DNA from: a virus
Taxonomy: Duplodnaviria > Heunggongvirae > Uroviricota > Caudoviricetes
DNA length: 5,669 bases
Reading direction: 5' to 3' (one strand)
Virus record (IMG/VR): IMGVR_UViG_3300029253_000142
The translations under genes were made by a program, and so were the position numbers. Shown piece by piece: positions 107-5,669 of the stretch. Below the pieces are notes generated by a model that was not told the DNA's origin, ran no database searches, and saw nothing but the letters and a program-made list of their open reading frames with translations. The stretch's first letter is position 1. Every line of letters begins with the position of its first letter.

Positions 107-340
107 GTGAGTACATCGGCTACCATTCTCGACATGTGCTGTGGCAGTCGCATGCTCTGGTTCGATAAGAATGACGAATGGTCGATATTTAGCGATATCA
201 GGAAAGAGGAACATTCGCTATGTGATGGACGTCACCCGATTATTAATCCCGACATTATAGCTGATTTTCGTGCGCTGCCGTGGTTGTCTGCTTTGCATCA
301 AAAGCAGACATTACCAGATTTAGACATCTGTTTCCGATAG
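107..340 (+). CDS. 77-aa hypothetical protein; N-terminus resembles a class I SAM-dependent methyltransferase fragment (possible remnant)
   Basis: GTG start at 107 is preceded by a strong SD (GGGAGG, 94-99). Residues ILDMCCGS resemble SAM-binding motif I (hhDxGCGxG) and [10 protein letters not shown] resembles the DAxxLPF motif of small-molecule methyltransferases. At 77 aa it is too short to be a complete methyltransferase fold. Confidence 0.45.
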
Positions 341-393
341 CCCGTTCTGATGCTACACTTTTTGCTATTTTCATGAACCTCATAAACACATTT

Positions 394-1059
394 ATGACTG
401 TTGCTGATTTCAAACGCCCCAAATTGGAGCTCCCAAACGGGGCAAAAAAACTATTACTGCACTCTTGCTGTGCTCCATGTTCCGGTGAAGTGATGGAGGC
501 GCTTCAGGCCTCGGGAATCGACTACACCATCTTTTTCTACAACCCGAACATTCATCCTCAGAAAGAGTATTTAATTCGTAAGGATGAGAATATTCGCTTT
601 GCTAAACAACACGGCGTGCCATTTATTGATGCTGATTACGACACAGACAACTGGTTTGAGCGAGCCAAAGGAATGGAATGGGAGCCTGAACGAGGGATCC
701 GTTGTACCATGTGTTTTGACATGCGTTTTGAGCGGACTGCGCTGTATGCCGCTGAAAATGGTTTCAGTGTGATCAGTAGCTCACTGGGCATTTCACGCTG
801 GAAAAATATGCAGCAGGTTAACGACTGTGGACGGCGAGCCGTCGCGTATTATCCGGGCATGGTGTACTGGGATTATAACTGGCGAAAGCAGGGCGGCTCT
901 TCCCGCATGATTGAAATCAGCAAGCGCGAACAATTCTATCAGCAGGAATATTGTGGCTGCGTGTATTCACTGCGCGATACCAATCTACACCGCAAATCTC
1001 AGGGACGCCCTCTAATCAAAATTGGTCAACTCCACTACGGTAAAGAAGGCCAGGAATGA
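394..1059 (+). CDS. queH: QueH-like epoxyqueuosine reductase homolog (DUF208 family)
   Basis: Long ORF with CCAPC (466-480), CTMC and CGC cysteine motifs, consistent with my recollection of the QueH/DUF208 family. Start is uncertain: ATG 394 is preferred, ATG 373 and the ORF-track start 280 are alternatives, and none has a clear SD. Stop is TGA 1057-1059. Confidence 0.75.
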
Positions 1060-1496: not shown

Positions 1497-1559
1497 GGCT
1501 GCGGGTGCTTGAGGCTATCTGCCTCGGGCATGAACACCAACGGCAGATAGAGAAAAGCC

Positions 1560-1625
1560 CCAGTTAACATTACGCGTCCTGCAAGACGCTTAACATTAAT
1601 CTGAGGCCAATTTCATGCTAGACAC
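1560..1625 (-). ncRNA. Candidate Sok-like antisense RNA covering the mok translation-initiation region
   Basis: By analogy with hok/sok loci, Sok is encoded antisense to the mok SD/start. A weak minus-strand promoter (TTGCCT, plus 1658-1653; TAACCT, plus 1635-1630) would start transcription near 1623. A hairpin GCGTC/GACGC (1574-1589) is flanked by a 9-bp direct repeat TTAACATTA. Boundaries are guesses. Confidence 0.2.
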
Positions 1626-1827
1626 ATGTAGGTTAGCCTCTTACGTGCCGAAAGGCAAGGAGAAGCAGGCTATGAAGCAGCAAAAGGCGATGTTAATCGC
1701 CCTGATCGTCATCTGTTTAACCGTCATAGTGACGGCACTGGTAACGAGGAAAGACCTCTGCGAGGTACGAATCCGAACCGGCCAGACGGAGGTCGCTGTC
1801 TTCACAGCTTACGAACCTGAGGAGTAA
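1615..1827 (+). CDS. mok-like reading frame (in-frame upstream extension of hok)
   Basis: ATG at 1615 with GAGG at 1603-1606 upstream; 70 codons in the same frame and with the same stop as hok, matching the Mok/Hok arrangement as I recall it from annotated chromosomal hok loci. Confidence 0.4.
   Translation: MLDTCRLASYVPKGKEKQAMKQQKAMLIALIVICLTVIVTALVTRKDLCEVRIRTGQTEVAVFTAYEPEE
1672..1827 (+). CDS. hokD: Hok/Gef-family type I toxin, 51 aa, matching HokD (RelF) as recalled
   Basis: Translation MKQQKAMLIALIVICLTVIVTALVTRKDLCEVRIRTGQTEVAVFTAYEPEE has a single transmembrane helix and the Hok signature, and matches my recollection of HokD/RelF. Strong SD AAGGAG (1656-1661) precedes ATG 1672; stop TAA at 1825-1827. 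Confidence 0.9.
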   Translation: MKQQKAMLIALIVICLTVIVTALVTRKDLCEVRIRTGQTEVAVFTAYEPEE

Positions 1828-2295: not shown

Positions 2296-2361
2296 ACTCA
2301 TCTACAATCTTGCGCGGGGCTGAACTCCTGCTGAGTAACACCGTGCCACCGGAGAAAACCG

Positions 2362-2640
2362 ATGGCACGCAACGCAAAATATTACAAACATGATAATTCG
2401 ACCGTTCTTGCCCACACGCACGAGCGGTATTCTCACGCATTTAAGTCAGACTGGTACCAGCATCCCCCATGCACTGAAGAACAGGCCGAATGGCTCATTC
2501 AGTGTTACCGCAGGCGCGGATGCGAGGTTAAAAAAGCCCTTAGCCTCGACTACCGTCACTGGATAATCTCCGTCAGGCTTCCTTACTCCGAACGCCCACC
2601 GCGTCCGTCCCGCACATTCCAGCAACGCATCTGGAGGTAA
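2362..2640 (+). CDS. Hypothetical protein, 92 aa, apparently translationally coupled to the ydfU-like gene
   Basis: SD GGAGA (2351-2355) before ATG 2362. Stop TAA at 2638-2640 lies 1 nt before the GTG start of the next gene. No recognisable family. Confidence 0.45.
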   Translation: MARNAKYYKHDNSTVLAHTHERYSHAFKSDWYQHPPCTEEQAEWLIQCYRRRGCEVKKALSLDYRHWIISVRLPYSERPPRPSRTFQQRIWR

Positions 2641-2641
2641 C

Positions 2642-3691
2642 GTGCGGGTATTACTTCGACCTGTTCTGGTACCGGAGCTCGGGCTGGTGATCGTTAAGCC
2701 GGGCCGTGAATCCATGCCGGTATTCCACAATACCCGGGTACTGGTGGAGCCGGAACCGAAAAGCATGCGTAATCTGTCGTCCGGGGTCGTTCCTGCCGTT
2801 CGCCAGCCGCTGGCGGAGGATAAATCATTACTGCCATTTTTCAGCGACGAACGAGTGATTCGTGCTGCTGGTGGTGCTGGCGCATTGTCTGACTGGTTAC
2901 TGCGCCATGTTAAATCCTGCCAGTGGCCACACGGCGATTATCACCACAGTGAAACCGTCATTCACCGTTATGGTACCGGCGCAATGGTGTTGTGCTGGCA
3001 CTGCGACAACCAGCTGCGTGACCAGACATCCGAATCACTCGGGCAACTTGCTCATCAAAACCTGTCTGCATGGATGATTGACGTCATCGGTCACGCAATA
3101 AGCGGTACGCAGGAGCGTGAATTATCTCTGGCTGAATTATCCTGGTGGGCGGTCCGCAATCAGGTGGCGGACGCGCTACCGGAAGCGGTATTACGTCGTT
3201 CGCTGGGGTTGCGTGCGGAAAAAATCCGCTCAATGTACCGTGAAAGCGACATCGTACCGGGAGAGCAGACCGCCACCAGCATACTGAAACAGCGCACAAA
3301 AAATCTTGCGCCGCTGCCTCACGCCCACCAGCAACAGAACCCACCACAGGAAAAGGCGGTGGTCAGTATCGCCGTTGATCCGGAGTCTCCGGAATCTTTC
3401 ATGAAGCGGCCTAAACGTCGCCGTTGGGTAAATGAGAAATACAAACGCTGGGTAAAGACACAGCCGTGCGTGTGTTGTGGTAAGCCAGCCGACGATCCCC
3501 ATCACCTGATTGGTCATGGTCAGGGAGGTATGGGGACAAAAGCCCACGATATTTTCACGCTACCGCTGTGTCGGGAGCATCACAACGAGCTTCATGCGGA
3601 TCCGCTGGCGTTCGAAGAAAAGCATGGTTCTCAGGTTGATTTAATTTTTCGTTTTCTTGATCACGCCTTTGCAACTGGCGTGCTTGGGTAA
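2642..3691 (+). CDS. ydfU: YdfU-like DUF968 protein (349 aa) with Cys/His-rich, HNH/zinc-finger-like motifs
   Basis: GTG 2642 preceded by SD GGAGG (2633-2637). The C-terminus carries CVCCGKP...HH...CREHHNELH and an internal CQWPHGDYHH...CWHCDNQ cluster. Size and position upstream of Q match Qin-prophage YdfU. Confidence 0.8.
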   Translation: MRVLLRPVLVPELGLVIVKPGRESMPVFHNTRVLVEPEPKSMRNLSSGVVPAVRQPLAEDKSLLPFFSDERVIRAAGGAGALSDWLLRHVKSCQWPHGDYHHSETVIHRYGTGAMVLCWHCDNQLRDQTSESLGQLAHQNLSAWMIDVIGHAISGTQERELSLAELSWWAVRNQVADALPEAVLRRSLGLRAEKIRSMYRESDIVPGEQTATSILKQRTKNLAPLPHAHQQQNPPQEKAVVSIAVDPESPESFMKRPKRRRWVNEKYKRWVKTQPCVCCGKPADDPHHLIGHGQGGMGTKAHDIFTLPLCREHHNELHADPLAFEEKHGSQVDLIFRFLDHAFATGVLG

Positions 3692-3703
3692 AAGAGGTGA
3701 CTG

Positions 3704-4063
3704 ATGCTCATAGATTTGGTTTTACCTTACCCGCCGACGGTGAACACTTACTGGCGACGCCGTGGCAGCACATATTTTATCTCGGAGGAGGGAAAGCGTT
3801 ATCGCCGGGCTGTGGCGCTTATTGTTCGCCAGCAGCGGCTGAAATTAAGCCTGTCCGGAAGGCTGGTAATCAGGATTATTGCAGAGCCACCGGATAATCG
3901 CCGTCGCGACCTGGACAATATCCTGAAAGCGCCGCTGGATGCGCTGACGCATGCAGGACTGTTAATGGACGATGAGCAGTTTGATGAAATCAATATTGTA
4001 CGTGGCCAGCCAGTATCAGGTGGACGGCTGGAGATAAAAATTACAGAGGTGGGGTGTGCATGA
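3704..4063 (+). CDS. rusA: RusA-family crossover junction endodeoxyribonuclease (Holliday junction resolvase)
   Basis: 119 aa with the conserved RusA pattern (PDNRRRDLDN, LDAL, GGRLE near the C-terminus), closely paralleling E. coli RusA as I recall it. SD AAGAGGT (3692-3698) precedes ATG 3704. Confidence 0.9.
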   Translation: MLIDLVLPYPPTVNTYWRRRGSTYFISEEGKRYRRAVALIVRQQRLKLSLSGRLVIRIIAEPPDNRRRDLDNILKAPLDALTHAGLLMDDEQFDEINIVRGQPVSGGRLEIKITEVGCA

Positions 4064-4749
4064 ATAACCAGTATTTACAGTTTGTTCGTGAGCAACTCAT
4101 GATTGCCACAGCGGATCTCAGTGGGCCGACAAAAGGCCAGCTGGAAGCCTGGCAGGAAAATGCCCTGTTCGATACAGGGCGTTACAGACGCAAAAAAATT
4201 CGTTACCGCGATGAGGTAACCGGAAAAATGATCACGCGGGATAACCCACCGATCCCGGGTAAACAATCACTGGCGAAAGGCTCATCAATTGCGCTGGTCA
4301 GTCCGGTTGAGTTTGCAACATCATCGTGGCGGCGTGCCGTTCTGGAACTGGAAGAACATCAGAAGGCGTGGTTGTTGTGGTGTTATGGCGGAAACATTTG
4401 CTGGGAGCATCAGATCGCGATAACGCAGTGGGTGTGGAGTGAATTTAAAACTCAGTCCGGCTCCAGAAAAATTGCAGTGAAAACGCTGGAGCGTGTGAAG
4501 AAGTTGATCTGGCTGGCGGCACAGGATGTCAGAGGATGGGTTACCGGGTGTGAGGTCTACCAGAGACAGGAGCTTGCCAGACTGTGTGGAGTTAAGCCTG
4601 ATAACTGGAGCCATAATTATGCGAACTACTGGCGTGAGATGTGCGATATTTTTAAGCGCCTCGATAGAGAATCCTTGATTTGCTCCGTGAAAATAAGAGC
4701 GCAACAAAAAGCGACCTTTTCACGACGAGATATTGCAAAAGTCAATTAA
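4060..4749 (+). CDS. Putative late-gene antitermination protein Q (QuuQ/YdfT-like)
   Basis: 229-aa ORF whose ATG (4060) overlaps the rusA stop (ATGA), with SD GAGGT at 4046-4050. It sits directly downstream of rusA/ydfU, where lambdoid phages carry Q, and is followed by promoter-like elements and an intrinsic terminator. The assignment is mainly positional; I do not recognise the Q fold from sequence. Confidence 0.55.
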   Translation: MNNQYLQFVREQLMIATADLSGPTKGQLEAWQENALFDTGRYRRKKIRYRDEVTGKMITRDNPPIPGKQSLAKGSSIALVSPVEFATSSWRRAVLELEEHQKAWLLWCYGGNICWEHQIAITQWVWSEFKTQSGSRKIAVKTLERVKKLIWLAAQDVRGWVTGCEVYQRQELARLCGVKPDNWSHNYANYWREMCDIFKRLDRESLICSVKIRAQQKATFSRRDIAKVN

Positions 4750-4810: not shown

Positions 4811-4839
4811 AAAAAACCACCGCCAGGTGGTTTTTTTTA
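4811..4839 (+). terminator. Rho-independent terminator after Q (possible tR'), A-tract/T-tract flanked
   Basis: AAAAAA, stem CCACC (4817-4821) / GGTGG (4826-4830) with GCCA loop, then TTTTTTTT (4831-4838). The symmetric A/T flanks mean it could terminate in both directions. Confidence 0.7.
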
Positions 4840-4961: not shown

Positions 4962-5159
4962 ATGCTAAAACAGCAGGATATGACAGAAACCGCCAGAGTA
5001 GTGTTTAATGAATTAAGCGTTACCGAACCGGCGACAGTCGGGGAGATTGCACAGAATACTTACCTTTCACGCGAACGCTGCCAGTTAATACTGACCCAGC
5101 TGGTTATGGCGGGTCTGGCAGACTATCAGTTCGGTTGTTACAGACGCCTTCCGCAGTGA
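4962..5159 (+). CDS. Small hypothetical protein (about 66 aa) of unknown function
   Basis: ATG 4962 is preceded by AAGGGA (about 4948-4953). The sequence MLKQQDMTETARVVFNELSVTEPATVGEIAQNTYLSRERCQLILTQLVMAGLADY has the feel of a helix-turn-helix or winged-helix regulator, but this is only an impression. The in-frame ATG 4839 is an alternative start but lies in the terminator T-tract with no SD. Confidence 0.5.
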   Translation: MLKQQDMTETARVVFNELSVTEPATVGEIAQNTYLSRERCQLILTQLVMAGLADYQFGCYRRLPQ

Positions 5160-5172
5160 AGGCTTTTTTATT
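5146..5172 (+). terminator. Rho-independent terminator at the end of the small ORF
   Basis: Stem GCCTTC (5146-5151) / GAAGGC (5158-5163), 6-nt loop containing the stop codon, followed by TTTTTTATTT. Confidence 0.6.
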
Positions 5173-5309: not shown

Positions 5310-5669
5310 ATGCTTAATACTGTAAAAATATCCAGTTGTGAGTTAATCAACGCCGACTGCCTGGAATTTATCCGGTCGTTACCCGAAAATTCTGTTGACC
5401 TGATAGTCACGGACCCGCCGTACTTTAAAGTGAAGCCTGAGGGCTGGGATAACCAGTGGAAGGGCGACGATGATTACCTGAAGTGGCTGGACCAGTGTCT
5501 GGCGCAGTTCTGGCGGGTGCTGAAACCTGCCGGAAGTCTTTACCTGTTCTGTGGTCATCGCCTGGCATCTGATATCGAAATCATGATGCGTGAACGCTTC
5601 AGTGTGCTGAACCATATTATCTGGGCGAAGCCGTCCGGACGCTGGAACGGATGCAACAAGGAAAGCCTG
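5310..5669 (+). CDS. DNA N6-adenine methyltransferase, beta-class, YhdJ-like (5' partial; runs off window end)
   Basis: Translation MLNTVKISSCELINADCLEFIRSLPENSVDLIVTDPPYF... carries the DPPY catalytic motif preceded by a region resembling the N-terminus of E. coli YhdJ (VDLIFADPPYN). In-frame stops at 5301-5306 fix ATG 5310 as the first possible start; the SD is weak. The frame is open to the last base of the window. Confidence 0.85.
   Translation, partial: MLNTVKISSCELINADCLEFIRSLPENSVDLIVTDPPYFKVKPEGWDNQWKGDDDYLKWLDQCLAQFWRVLKPAGSLYLFCGHRLASDIEIMMRERFSVLNHIIWAKPSGRWNGCNKESL

What the first reader, a model, noticed from the sequence alone, without database searches (positions are those of the whole stretch)
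2362..4749. Tightly coupled block: 92-aa ORF, ydfU-like, rusA, Q
The four ORFs are packed with 1-nt gaps or overlaps: TAA at 2638-2640 then GTG 2642; SD AAGAGGT straight after the ydfU stop; rusA TGA overlapping the Q ATG as ATGA. This implies translational coupling and co-function. The DUF968 protein carries two Cys/His clusters resembling HNH or zinc-finger nuclease motifs and sits beside the RusA resolvase, suggesting a DNA-processing role. The 92-aa ORF is not a gene I can place.
Basis: partly seen in the sequence, partly recalled or inferred. Interest (0 to 1): 0.45.

Follow-up and report, generated by a model that had tools for sequence, protein, structure and literature searches.

The report
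Prophage recombination-nuclease and Q gene cassette
This is the ordinary "nin-region" end of a lambda-like prophage of E. coli/Shigella: a small conserved protein of unknown role, an HNH-type DNA nuclease (YdfU), the RusA junction resolvase and the Q late-gene switch, packed head to tail as in thousands of sequenced genomes.

Summary
Four same-strand genes lie at 2362-4749, and their junctions are conserved across about 160 related prophage loci. The small ORF stops 1 nt before the ydfU GTG. A 12-nt spacer with a ribosome-binding site precedes rusA. The rusA stop overlaps the Q start as ATGA.

The block is the promoter-distal part of the early-right (nin) operon of a Qin/Stx-type lambdoid prophage. 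It is present in most E. coli genomes and is already annotated in RefSeq.

The 92-aa ORF is a real gene in PHROG 1212. Its C-terminal 66 residues are under purifying selection (pN/pS 0.14) and recur at 37-50% identity in phages of several other enterobacterial genera. Its N-terminal 26 residues are Escherichia/Shigella-specific, weakly constrained and predicted disordered. The fold gives no functional clue.

What this analysis adds is modest. The small gene sits directly upstream of three different nin-region nuclease families, and it is unannotated in K-12 MG1655. Low interest.

The parts
2351..2356 (+). GGAGAA ribosome-binding site of the small ORF
   Evidence: Read from the sequence, 5 nt upstream of ATG 2362. 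GGAG(A/G)A is kept in about 90 of 169 related loci and is the weaker AGAGA in the rest.
2362..2640 (+). 92-aa ORF, a small basic protein of PHROG 1212 (function unknown)
   Evidence: phrog_1212 E 4.9e-36 over residues 27-92. RefSeq 'hypothetical protein' in related genomes. Intact in 71 of 72 unique sequences. ATG 2362 is the only in-frame start in 169 of 169 loci. pI 9.8.
2362..2439 (+). N-terminal 26-codon extension, specific to Escherichia/Shigella
   Evidence: Absent from the 66-aa homologues. pN/pS 0.70 and no codon-position periodicity, entropy 0.47/0.43/0.48. AlphaFold pLDDT below 50.
2440..2637 (+). Conserved 66-residue core of the small protein (beta-alpha-beta-beta plus a basic C-terminal helix)
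2633..2637 (+). GGAGG ribosome-binding site of ydfU, embedded in the last sense codons of the small ORF
   Evidence: Sequence. TGGAGGTAA(C/T)GTG is conserved with a 1-nt gap in 161 of 161 loci.
2642..3691 (+). YdfU-like DUF968 protein, 349 aa, GTG start
   Evidence: PF06147 E 4e-77 over residues 160-346. phrog_96 E 4e-174. 85% identical to K-12 YdfU. The N-terminus aligns with those of P1 PdcB and the Vibrio pVa-1 homologue, which supports the GTG start.
2918..3010 (+). N-terminal Cys/His cluster (C93 ... H101 ... L-C118-W-H120-C121-D-N123), a putative structural zinc site in a domain of unknown function
   Evidence: C93, Q94, L117, C118, W119, H120, D122 and N123 are invariant from E. coli to P1 PdcB (28% identity) and Vibrio pVa-1 (35%), with Cys/His swaps at positions 101 and 121. 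phrog_11007 covers residues 2-134. No Pfam family. The model is of low confidence here.
3458..3631 (+). His-Me (HNH) finger nuclease domain, residues 273-330: C276-x2-C279, H287-H288, C310-R-E-H313-H314-x3-H318
3692..3699 (+). AAGAGGTG ribosome-binding site of rusA in the 12-nt spacer
   Evidence: Sequence. Conserved in 65 of 66 loci.
3704..4063 (+). RusA-family Holliday-junction resolvase, 119 aa
   Evidence: PF05866 E 3e-17. phrog_34. 44% identical to K-12 RusA, with the RRRDLDN and DD motifs aligned.
4060..4749 (+). Q antiterminator, 229 aa, ATG overlapping the rusA stop (ATGA)
   Evidence: PF06323 E 4.6e-84. phrog_304. RefSeq homologue coordinates.
4811..4838 (.). Intrinsic terminator hairpin flanked by an A-run and a T-run, 62 nt after Q. 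Probably the tR'-type terminator that Q reads through.
   Evidence: Terminator scan on both strands and the sequence. SfV carries an annotated terminator in the same place after Q. Its role as the Q target is inferred.

Best explanation
The block is the promoter-distal end of the delayed-early rightward ('nin') operon of a Qin/Stx-type lambdoid prophage of E. coli/Shigella.

After induction it is read as one transcript (inferred). Ribosomes pass from gene to gene because each start codon lies within 12 nt of, or overlaps, the preceding stop, with its Shine-Dalgarno sequence in or just after the upstream gene. This anatomy is shown and conserved. The coupling itself is inferred.

The four products:
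1. A small basic protein whose conserved unit is a 66-residue beta-alpha-beta-beta core with an Arg/Pro-rich tail. Its role is unknown. I think it most likely binds nucleic acid or acts as an accessory in the same recombination step as the nuclease that follows it.
2. YdfU, a two-domain protein. It has an N-terminal zinc-cluster domain of unknown function and a C-terminal His-Me (HNH) finger homologous to those of P1 Ref and ΦNM1 Gp16. By inference it nicks or cuts recombination or replication intermediates, possibly RecA-bound D-loops. It occupies the slot that NinG/Rap or YbcO fills in other lambdoid phages.
3. RusA, which resolves Holliday junctions.
4. Q, which loads onto RNA polymerase at the late promoter and lets it read through the terminator at 4811-4838 into the late genes.

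The block is a standard mosaic cassette, not a dedicated four-protein machine.
For: Identity of the module:
- Pfam, PHROG and NCBIfam assignments.
- RefSeq annotation of near-identical prophages, with replication genes upstream and lysis genes downstream.
- K-12 Qin has rem, ydfU and ydfT/Q in the same order.
- The rem-to-ydfU segment is present in 4532 of 5426 complete E. coli genomes.

Junction anatomy is conserved in about 160 loci.

The small ORF is a real gene:
- Core pN/pS 0.14 with third-position variation.
- Distant homologues in other genera.

The small ORF sits in the nin slot next to the nuclease:
- DUF968 lies directly downstream in 162 of 164 loci of the 92-aa type.
- A His-Me nuclease lies directly downstream in 24 of 28 loci of the 66-aa type: 17 NinG plus 2 NinG remnants, 3 YbcO, and 2 YbcO/DUF968-like 97-aa HNH proteins.

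YdfU HNH domain:
- Direct homology to Gp16. Gp16 was shown experimentally to be a RecA-stimulated nickase whose zinc-finger residues are required (PMC12817073).
- Ref is a RecA-dependent D-loop nuclease (PMC4330346, PMC3973344).
- Published classification of DUF968 with YbcO as His-Me group 7, with RusA and Q as neighbours (PMC5714182).

RusA motifs are conserved. A terminator follows Q.
Against: - No expression, activity or interaction data exist for this locus.
- The YdfU model as a whole is of low confidence (mean pLDDT 58.7). Only the C-terminal domain supports a fold comparison.
- Sequence-only searches of the PDB give nothing significant.
- RecA dependence is extrapolated from two relatives that share only the roughly 60-residue HNH core.
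- P1 PdcB, a full-length YdfU homologue, lacks the two helix histidines and can be disrupted by insertion in P1 (PMC10067587). The HNH chemistry may therefore not be the conserved function of the whole family.
- In K-12 a very strong Rho-dependent terminator is reported upstream of ydfU (PMC9160355). In the lysogen this stretch is therefore largely silent.
Confidence: 0.8

Rival explanations
1. The small protein is a dedicated partner of the nin-region His-Me nucleases. It could be an inhibitor or chaperone that keeps a potentially toxic nuclease in check, or a DNA-targeting subunit. In this reading the small ORF and ydfU form a two-component enzyme made in fixed proportion by translational coupling.
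For: - It is invariably adjacent to the nuclease with a 1-nt gap in Escherichia (161 of 161).
- It lies directly upstream of NinG, YbcO or DUF968-like nucleases in 24 of 28 distant loci, with gaps of -4 to +5 nt.
- One natural in-frame fusion of the small protein and YdfU exists, P0192.
- Relatives of the nuclease are toxic or growth-inhibiting when expressed (Gp16, PMC12817073).
- The protein is basic with an Arg-rich tail.
Against: - Small proteins 88% identical precede nucleases of different families: YbcO in mEp237 and NinG in L187. There is no partner-specific co-evolution.
- Full-length YdfU homologues in P1, SfV and Vibrio phages have no such gene, and P1 PdcA is unrelated.
- Homologues in PY54, Erwinia phage 59 and an Enterobacter phage are not next to a nuclease.
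- Unrelated small genes occupy the same slot elsewhere (ninE in DLP12; ninF).
- The fusion is a single contig and may be an error.
- No complex prediction could be run.
Confidence: 0.25
2. The 92-aa ORF matters only as a translated leader. Its translation delivers ribosomes to the weak GTG start of ydfU and shields the RNA from Rho. The peptide itself has no function.
For: - The ydfU start is GTG, and its GGAGG lies inside the upstream ORF.
- A strong Rho-dependent terminator is reported upstream of ydfU in K-12.
- The RNA is C-rich and G-poor at 2340-2460 and 2540-2620.
- The N-terminal 26 codons show no protein-level constraint.
Against: - The 66-residue core is under strong purifying selection (pN/pS 0.14) and is conserved at 37-50% identity across genera, with 15 invariant residues.
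- It folds confidently (pLDDT about 87).
- It persists where no nuclease follows.
- A leader role can coexist with a protein function but cannot be the whole story.
Confidence: 0.05
3. YdfU is an HNH protein of the DNA-packaging type, a terminase accessory like HK97 gp74, or an anti-phage defence or toxin nuclease carried as a moron. In this reading it is not a recombination enzyme.
For: - HNH nucleases serve packaging in many phages (cited in PMC12817073).
- Structural neighbours include the CBASS effector Cap5 and McrA.
- The module lies next to hok/sok and rem, which are accessory genes.
Against: - The gene lies between the replication genes and Q, several kb from any terminase, in the slot of NinG/YbcO and beside RusA.
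- There are no PADLOC hits.
- Cap5 and McrA match at lower Z than Ref, and only over the shared HNH core.
Confidence: 0.05

Closest known systems
E. coli K-12 Qin prophage rem-ydfU-ydfT(quuQ) region, and the equivalent region of Stx/PPompW-type prophages
   Same: Same genes in the same order. YdfU is 85% identical. The 92-aa ORF is intact and 87% identical in K-12. Rem lies upstream and a Q gene downstream.
   Different: K-12 Qin has no rusA between ydfU and Q, and MG1655 does not annotate the small ORF. The window's version carries RusA and a PF06323-type Q.
DLP12 / phage 82 / lambda nin region (ybcN-ninE-ybcO-rusA-ylcG-quuD; lambda ninF-ninG(rap)-ninH-ninI-Q)
   Same: Same position between the replication genes and Q. 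Same logic: a small ORF, then a His-Me nuclease, then RusA, then Q, with overlapping or abutting genes. phiES15 and mEp237 carry the window's small-gene family in exactly the ninE slot, before YbcO.
Bacteriophage P1 Ref (PDB 3plw), a RecA-dependent HNH nuclease
   Different: There is no significant sequence match. The Pfam RecA_dep_nuc family is not reached: only E 0.011 in a close homologue, below the cut-off. Ref lacks the large N-terminal zinc-cluster domain. RecA dependence of YdfU is untested.
Staphylococcus phage ΦNM1 Gp16 (HNHc_6/DUF968), a RecA-stimulated nickase (NAR 2026, PMC12817073)
   Same: The HNH cores are homologous: 41% identity over 59 aa, with matching CxxC ... H ... C-R-E-H-H-N-E-x-H motifs and spacing. 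Gp16 also passes the Pfam DUF968 threshold. A RusA gene lies in the same early region.
   Different: The N-terminal domains are unrelated. Gp16 has a NinB/Orf-like domain, while YdfU has the CQ...LCWH[CH]DN domain (one search aligns only residues 273-330). The host and phage lineage differ.
Bacteriophage P1 PdcB (with PdcA upstream)
   Same: Full-length homologue of YdfU (28% identity), including the N-terminal cluster and the N-terminus. It is also preceded by a 66-aa ORF.
   Different: PdcA is not homologous to the window's small protein. PdcB lacks H314 and H318. It lies after phd-doc, not in a nin region. Its function is unknown and it tolerates insertion.

Membership tests
His-Me finger (HNH) nuclease superfamily - YdfU C-terminal domain | beta-beta-alpha-metal fold | tested here: met
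His-Me finger (HNH) nuclease superfamily - YdfU C-terminal domain | Four-ligand zinc site (CxxC ... CxxH/C) bracketing the finger | tested here: met
   C276, C279, C310 and H313 are present. C276, C279 and C310 are invariant in 55 homologues. Position 313 is Cys in the natural variant P0155. They align with Gp16 C145, C148, C181 and H184; of these, C148A, C181A and H184A were tested and abolish growth inhibition.
His-Me finger (HNH) nuclease superfamily - YdfU C-terminal domain | Catalytic His on the first strand and metal-binding His/Asn on the helix | tested here: met
   H287-H288, and H314 and H318 in C-R-E-H-H-N-E-L-H, align with Gp16 H157, H185 and H189.
His-Me finger (HNH) nuclease superfamily - YdfU C-terminal domain | Metal-dependent nuclease activity | not testable with these tools
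   Needs a biochemical assay.
Pfam DUF968 (PF06147) | Score above the gathering threshold | tested here: met
   258.5 bits against 27.8, residues 160-346.
RecA-dependent nucleases (P1 Ref / ΦNM1 Gp16 type) | Membership of Pfam RecA_dep_nuc (PF16786) or HNHc_6 (PF16784) above threshold | tested here: not met
   HNHc_6 scores 24.4 bits against a cut-off of 26.6. RecA_dep_nuc is seen only at E 0.011 and 16.3 bits in the homologue P0193. The HNH core is homologous, but YdfU is not a member of either family model.
RecA-dependent nucleases (P1 Ref / ΦNM1 Gp16 type) | Cleavage requires or is stimulated by RecA filaments or D-loops | not testable with these tools
   Inference from two relatives only.
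RusA Holliday-junction resolvase family (PF05866) | Score above threshold, with the acidic catalytic residues conserved | tested here: met
   63.8 bits against 22.8. 44% identical to K-12 RusA, with R-R-R-D-L-D-N and D-D aligned. That these Asp residues (D70, D72 and D91 of E. coli RusA) are catalytic is from my own knowledge of the RusA literature. The NCBIfam PRK09786 'exception' cut-off of 200 bits is not reached (94.9), so it is a family member but not the K-12 equivalog.
Phage antitermination protein Q (PF06323) | Score above threshold, located just upstream of a late promoter and terminator | tested here: met
   282 bits against 25. A terminator lies at 4811-4838, 62 nt downstream. The promoter and the Q-binding site were not identified.
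PHROG 1212 (small nin-region protein, function unknown) - the 92-aa ORF | Profile match over the whole 66-position model | tested here: met
   E 4.9e-36, residues 27-92 against profile positions 1-66 of 66.
NinE (PF05322) / P1 PdcA - other small ORFs found upstream of these nucleases | Detectable sequence homology | tested here: not met
   hhalign probability 0.05% to DLP12 NinE and 0.14% to P1 PdcA. There is no Pfam hit at all.
Known anti-phage defence systems (PADLOC) | Any model hit for the small ORF, YdfU or Rem | tested here: not met
   No hits at E of 0.01 or better.

The most novel reading that the evidence does not exclude
The 66-residue core protein (PHROG 1212) is a generic accessory factor for nin-region His-Me recombination nucleases. 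It would be a small basic subunit or regulator that works with DUF968, YbcO and NinG alike, for example by binding the shared HNH core or the branched-DNA substrate. Translational coupling would supply it in fixed stoichiometry. YdfU would then be a third, enterobacterial example of a RecA-directed phage nuclease, after P1 Ref and ΦNM1 Gp16.
Probability: 0.2. Interest if true: 0.45.

Novelty: already known. Interest (0 to 1): 0.22.

Why it matters
The practical value is small.

- It shows that a conserved, selected gene lies in what MG1655 annotates as the rem-ydfU intergenic gap.
- It links the uncharacterised y-gene ydfU to two experimentally studied RecA-dependent nucleases, which makes an assay obvious.
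- It flags a small protein family that tracks the nin-region nuclease slot across three nuclease families.

If the small protein proved to be a nuclease partner, or YdfU proved RecA-directed, that would add one piece to lambdoid phage recombination. It could also bear on why these cassettes are so common in Stx and other E. coli prophages. It would not change any general picture.

Tried and rejected
- **Homology of the small protein to NinE or P1 PdcA.** Rejected, as was homology to the 96-aa ORF upstream of the Vibrio YdfU homologue.
- **Sequence searches of YdfU against the PDB.** Nothing significant. YbcO 3g27 came top, but only at E 0.93.
- **Defence-system or toxin reading.** No PADLOC hits. 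I found nothing to support the 'toxin to Rem' label seen in two phage records.
- **An RNA element or minus-strand gene explaining the odd N-terminal 26 codons.** Rfam found only sok, far upstream. All six frames have pN/pS of 0.57-0.86. Unresolved. Treated as a weakly constrained disordered leader.
- **Diverse profile A3 on genome contigs.** A2 was used instead.
- **Depth of the YdfU alignment.** This probably explains the low-confidence model.
Full report
**1. What is in the window**

The 5669-nt window is a piece of a lambdoid prophage. In order it encodes:
- QueH;
- a hok/sok toxin-antitoxin locus (Hok PF01848; sok RNA at 1503-1677, 115 bits);
- Rem (2044-2295);
- the four genes of the finding;
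- a terminator;
- a small TrmB-like ORF;
- the start of a DNA methyltransferase.

Near-identical stretches occur in E. coli and Shigella prophages. Positions 1930-2700 are 100% identical to E. coli EC931. The small ORF is 98% identical to one in Shigella flexneri SFBU0723. In those genomes, replication genes (O/P-like, DUF1627, DUF977) lie upstream, and holin and lysis genes lie downstream of Q. The rem-to-ydfU segment matches 4532 of 5426 complete E. coli genomes. K-12's cryptic prophage Qin has the same rem-ydfU-ydfT(Q) order.

**2. The observation**

- TAA 2638-2640, one base, then GTG 2642. GGAGG at 2633-2637 lies inside the last two sense codons of the small ORF.
- TAA 3689-3691, AAGAGGTG at 3692-3699, ATG 3704. 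This is a 12-nt spacer, not a 1-nt gap.
- ATGA at 4060-4063 joins rusA and Q.

Across the related loci I collected, the junctions are essentially invariant:
- 1-nt gap in 161 of 161 loci;
- 12-nt spacer in 65 of 66;
- 4-nt overlap in 33 of 36.

The same tight packing holds for nearly all neighbouring genes of these prophages. It is a property of the operon, not a special mark of these four genes.

**3. The 92-aa ORF**

It has no Pfam or NCBIfam family. It matches PHROG 1212, a 66-position family of unknown function, over residues 27-92 (E 5e-36). RefSeq calls it 'hypothetical protein' in many genomes. MG1655 leaves the rem-ydfU gap empty, although an intact ORF that is 87% identical lies there.

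Distribution:
- tblastn finds 66-aa homologues at 37-50% identity in phages of Salmonella, Klebsiella, Cronobacter, Citrobacter, Yersinia (PY54), Edwardsiella, Erwinia and Hafnia.
- An exhaustive profile search of 1.84 billion representative proteins finds only 105 clusters, nearly all stand-alone proteins of about 66 aa.
- This is a narrow family of enterobacterial phages.

Selection, measured on 71 intact unique sequences out of 72:
- The core (codons 27-92) has pN/pS 0.14 and codon-position entropies of 0.13/0.15/0.56. That is a clear coding signature.
- The N-terminal 26 codons have pN/pS 0.70 and flat entropies of 0.47/0.43/0.48.

The N-terminal extension occurs only in Escherichia/Shigella and is predicted disordered (pLDDT below 50). 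ATG 2362 is nevertheless the only in-frame start in 169 of 169 loci. The extension is therefore translated but barely constrained.

**4. Genomic context of the small gene**

- In the Escherichia (92-aa) type, DUF968 follows directly in 162 of 164 informative loci. The two exceptions are a decayed DUF968 and an insertion.
- In the 66-aa type, 24 of 28 loci have a His-Me nuclease directly downstream, with gaps of -4 to +5 nt. These are NinG in 17 plus 2 NinG remnants, YbcO in 3, and a 97-aa protein intermediate between YbcO and DUF968 in 2.
- In phiES15 and mEp237 the gene sits exactly where ninE sits in DLP12 (ybcN-ninE-ybcO-rusA). It is not homologous to NinE.

Several observations argue against a specific partnership with the nuclease:
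- Small proteins 88% identical precede YbcO in one phage and NinG in another.
- PY54, Erwinia phage 59 and an Enterobacter phage carry the gene away from any nuclease.
- Full-length YdfU homologues in P1 (PdcB), SfV (orf45) and Vibrio phages lack it. P1's 66-aa PdcA is unrelated.
- A single natural in-frame fusion of the small protein with YdfU exists (P0192, one contig). I give it little weight.

My reading is that the small gene is a nin-region gene that travels in the slot just before the nuclease. A functional link is possible but unproven.

**5. YdfU (DUF968)**

Pfam DUF968 covers residues 160-346 (E 4e-77). HNHc_6 is hit just below threshold. PHROG 96 is labelled HNH endonuclease.

The literature already places DUF968 with DUF1364/YbcO (PDB 3g27) as group 7 of the His-Me finger superfamily. 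It names YdfU and notes RusA and Q as neighbours (PMC5714182). Gram-positive DUF968 proteins have been described as an Orf-like domain fused to HNH (PMC4118853).

Independently, the HNH core aligns with Staphylococcus phage ΦNM1 Gp16 at 41% identity over 59 residues (BLASTP E 1e-10; hhalign probability 95.9%). The motifs correspond as follows:
- YdfU C276-x2-C279, H287/H288, C310-R-E-H313-H314-x3-H318;
- Gp16 C145-x2-C148, H157, C181-R-E-H184-H185-x3-H189.

Gp16 belongs to HNHc_6 and also passes the DUF968 threshold. It was shown in 2026 to be a RecA-interacting nickase that RecA stimulates, and its zinc-finger residues are required (PMC12817073). Ref is a RecA-dependent D-loop nuclease. The best available inference is that YdfU is a nicking His-Me nuclease acting on recombination intermediates, possibly RecA-bound ones. 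It fills the role that NinG/Rap or YbcO fills in other lambdoid phages. RecA dependence is extrapolation and is not shown.

**6. The N-terminal Cys/His cluster**

C121) is real and better conserved than I expected. C93-Q94 and L117-C118-W119-H120-x-D122-N123 are invariant from E. coli to P1 PdcB (28% identity) and Vibrio pVa-1 (35%). Cys/His exchanges at positions 101 and 121 are typical of a structural zinc site.

This domain (PHROG 11007) has no Pfam family, and no fold could be assigned. It is not detectably NinB/Orf-like.

P1 PdcB lacks the two helix histidines of the HNH motif, and pdcB tolerates insertion in P1. The conserved function of the whole family may therefore reside partly in the N-terminal domain.

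**7. RusA and Q**

- RusA is 44% identical to K-12 RusA, with the acidic motifs aligned.
- RusA is facultative in this cassette. 43 loci with YdfU lack it, as does K-12 Qin.
- Q is a PF06323 antiterminator.
- A strong hairpin flanked by an A-run and a T-run at 4811-4838 follows it. SfV has an annotated terminator at the same place. This fits the usual arrangement of late promoter and tR'. The promoter itself was not identified.

**8. Verdict**

The finding is a correct description of a very common and already annotated prophage module. The HNH idea is right, but it was published in 2017.

The new points are minor:
- The conserved unit of the small ORF is a 66-residue core.
- Its position just upstream of three different nuclease families is consistent.
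- It is missing from the K-12 annotation.
- YdfU is linked to Ref and Gp16.

Nothing here would surprise a phage specialist. The most interesting reading still open is that the small protein is a generic accessory of nin-region nucleases and that YdfU is RecA-directed. I put this at about 0.2.

Noticed in passing
L003 2307-2585 (minus strand) = NC_000913.3 about 1644306-1644584: E. coli K-12 MG1655 has an intact 92-aa ORF, 87% identical to the window's, between rem and ydfU. The reference annotation lists no gene there.
   Followed up: partly
window 2340-2460 and 2540-2620: The RNA is C-rich and G-poor in these stretches (GC skew -0.25 and -0.40). A 'very strong' Rho-dependent terminator is reported upstream of ydfU in K-12 Qin (PMC9160355). 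That would place a rut-like region inside the small ORF and could relate to the unconstrained N-terminal codons.
   Followed up: partly
window 2362-2439: The first 26 codons of the small ORF show no codon-position periodicity (pN/pS 0.70), yet they stay open with a fixed ATG in 169 of 169 loci. The minus-strand frame that carries the 70-aa ORF 2228-2440 is also stop-free in all sequences, and RefSeq annotates a minus-strand hypothetical protein there in some genomes (L001 4217-4396).
   Followed up: partly
window 1503-1827, terminator-like hairpin 1896-1913: A complete hok/sok type I toxin-antitoxin locus: sok RNA RF01794 at 115 bits, Hok PF01848 and a downstream terminator-like hairpin. It lies just upstream of rem.
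   Followed up: no
window 280-1059 (probable start near 394): A prophage-borne epoxyqueuosine reductase QueH (PF02677, E 4e-65) lies between the replication genes and hok. It is also annotated in related prophages.
   Followed up: no
window 4811-4838, 4962-5159 and 5311-5669: After Q come a hairpin terminator flanked by an A-run and a T-run, a small ORF that RefSeq labels TrmB-family or hypothetical, a second terminator-like hairpin at 5146-5163, and the start of a DNA methyltransferase. In related prophages three tRNA genes follow.
   Followed up: no
P0192 (438 aa; one NCBI contig of 420673 bp): An in-frame fusion of the K-12-type small protein (lacking its last three residues) to full-length YdfU. 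It is either a roughly 10-nt deletion at the 1-nt junction or an assembly error.
   Followed up: no
L203 1177-2448 (phage P1 pdcA-pdcB): P1 PdcB is a full-length YdfU homologue (28% identity). It keeps the N-terminal CQ...LCWH[CH]DN cluster but has lost the two helix histidines of the HNH motif. It is preceded by an unrelated 66-aa ORF, pdcA.
   Followed up: partly
L184 3192-3488 and L186 3201-3494: These 97-aa stand-alone HNH proteins hit both Pfam YbcO and DUF968 below threshold. They look like an intermediate between the two families. They also sit directly after the small gene and before RusA or Q.
   Followed up: partly
P0153-P0156 (proteins): Several YdfU homologues carry internal tandem duplications of 30-100 residues, for example a repeat of residues of about 160-255 in P0153. 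They are single sequences and may be assembly artefacts.
   Followed up: no
window 107-340: A 77-aa ORF ([14 protein letters not shown]...) looks like the N-terminal fragment of a methyltransferase-type gene, truncated before QueH. It was not examined.
   Followed up: no
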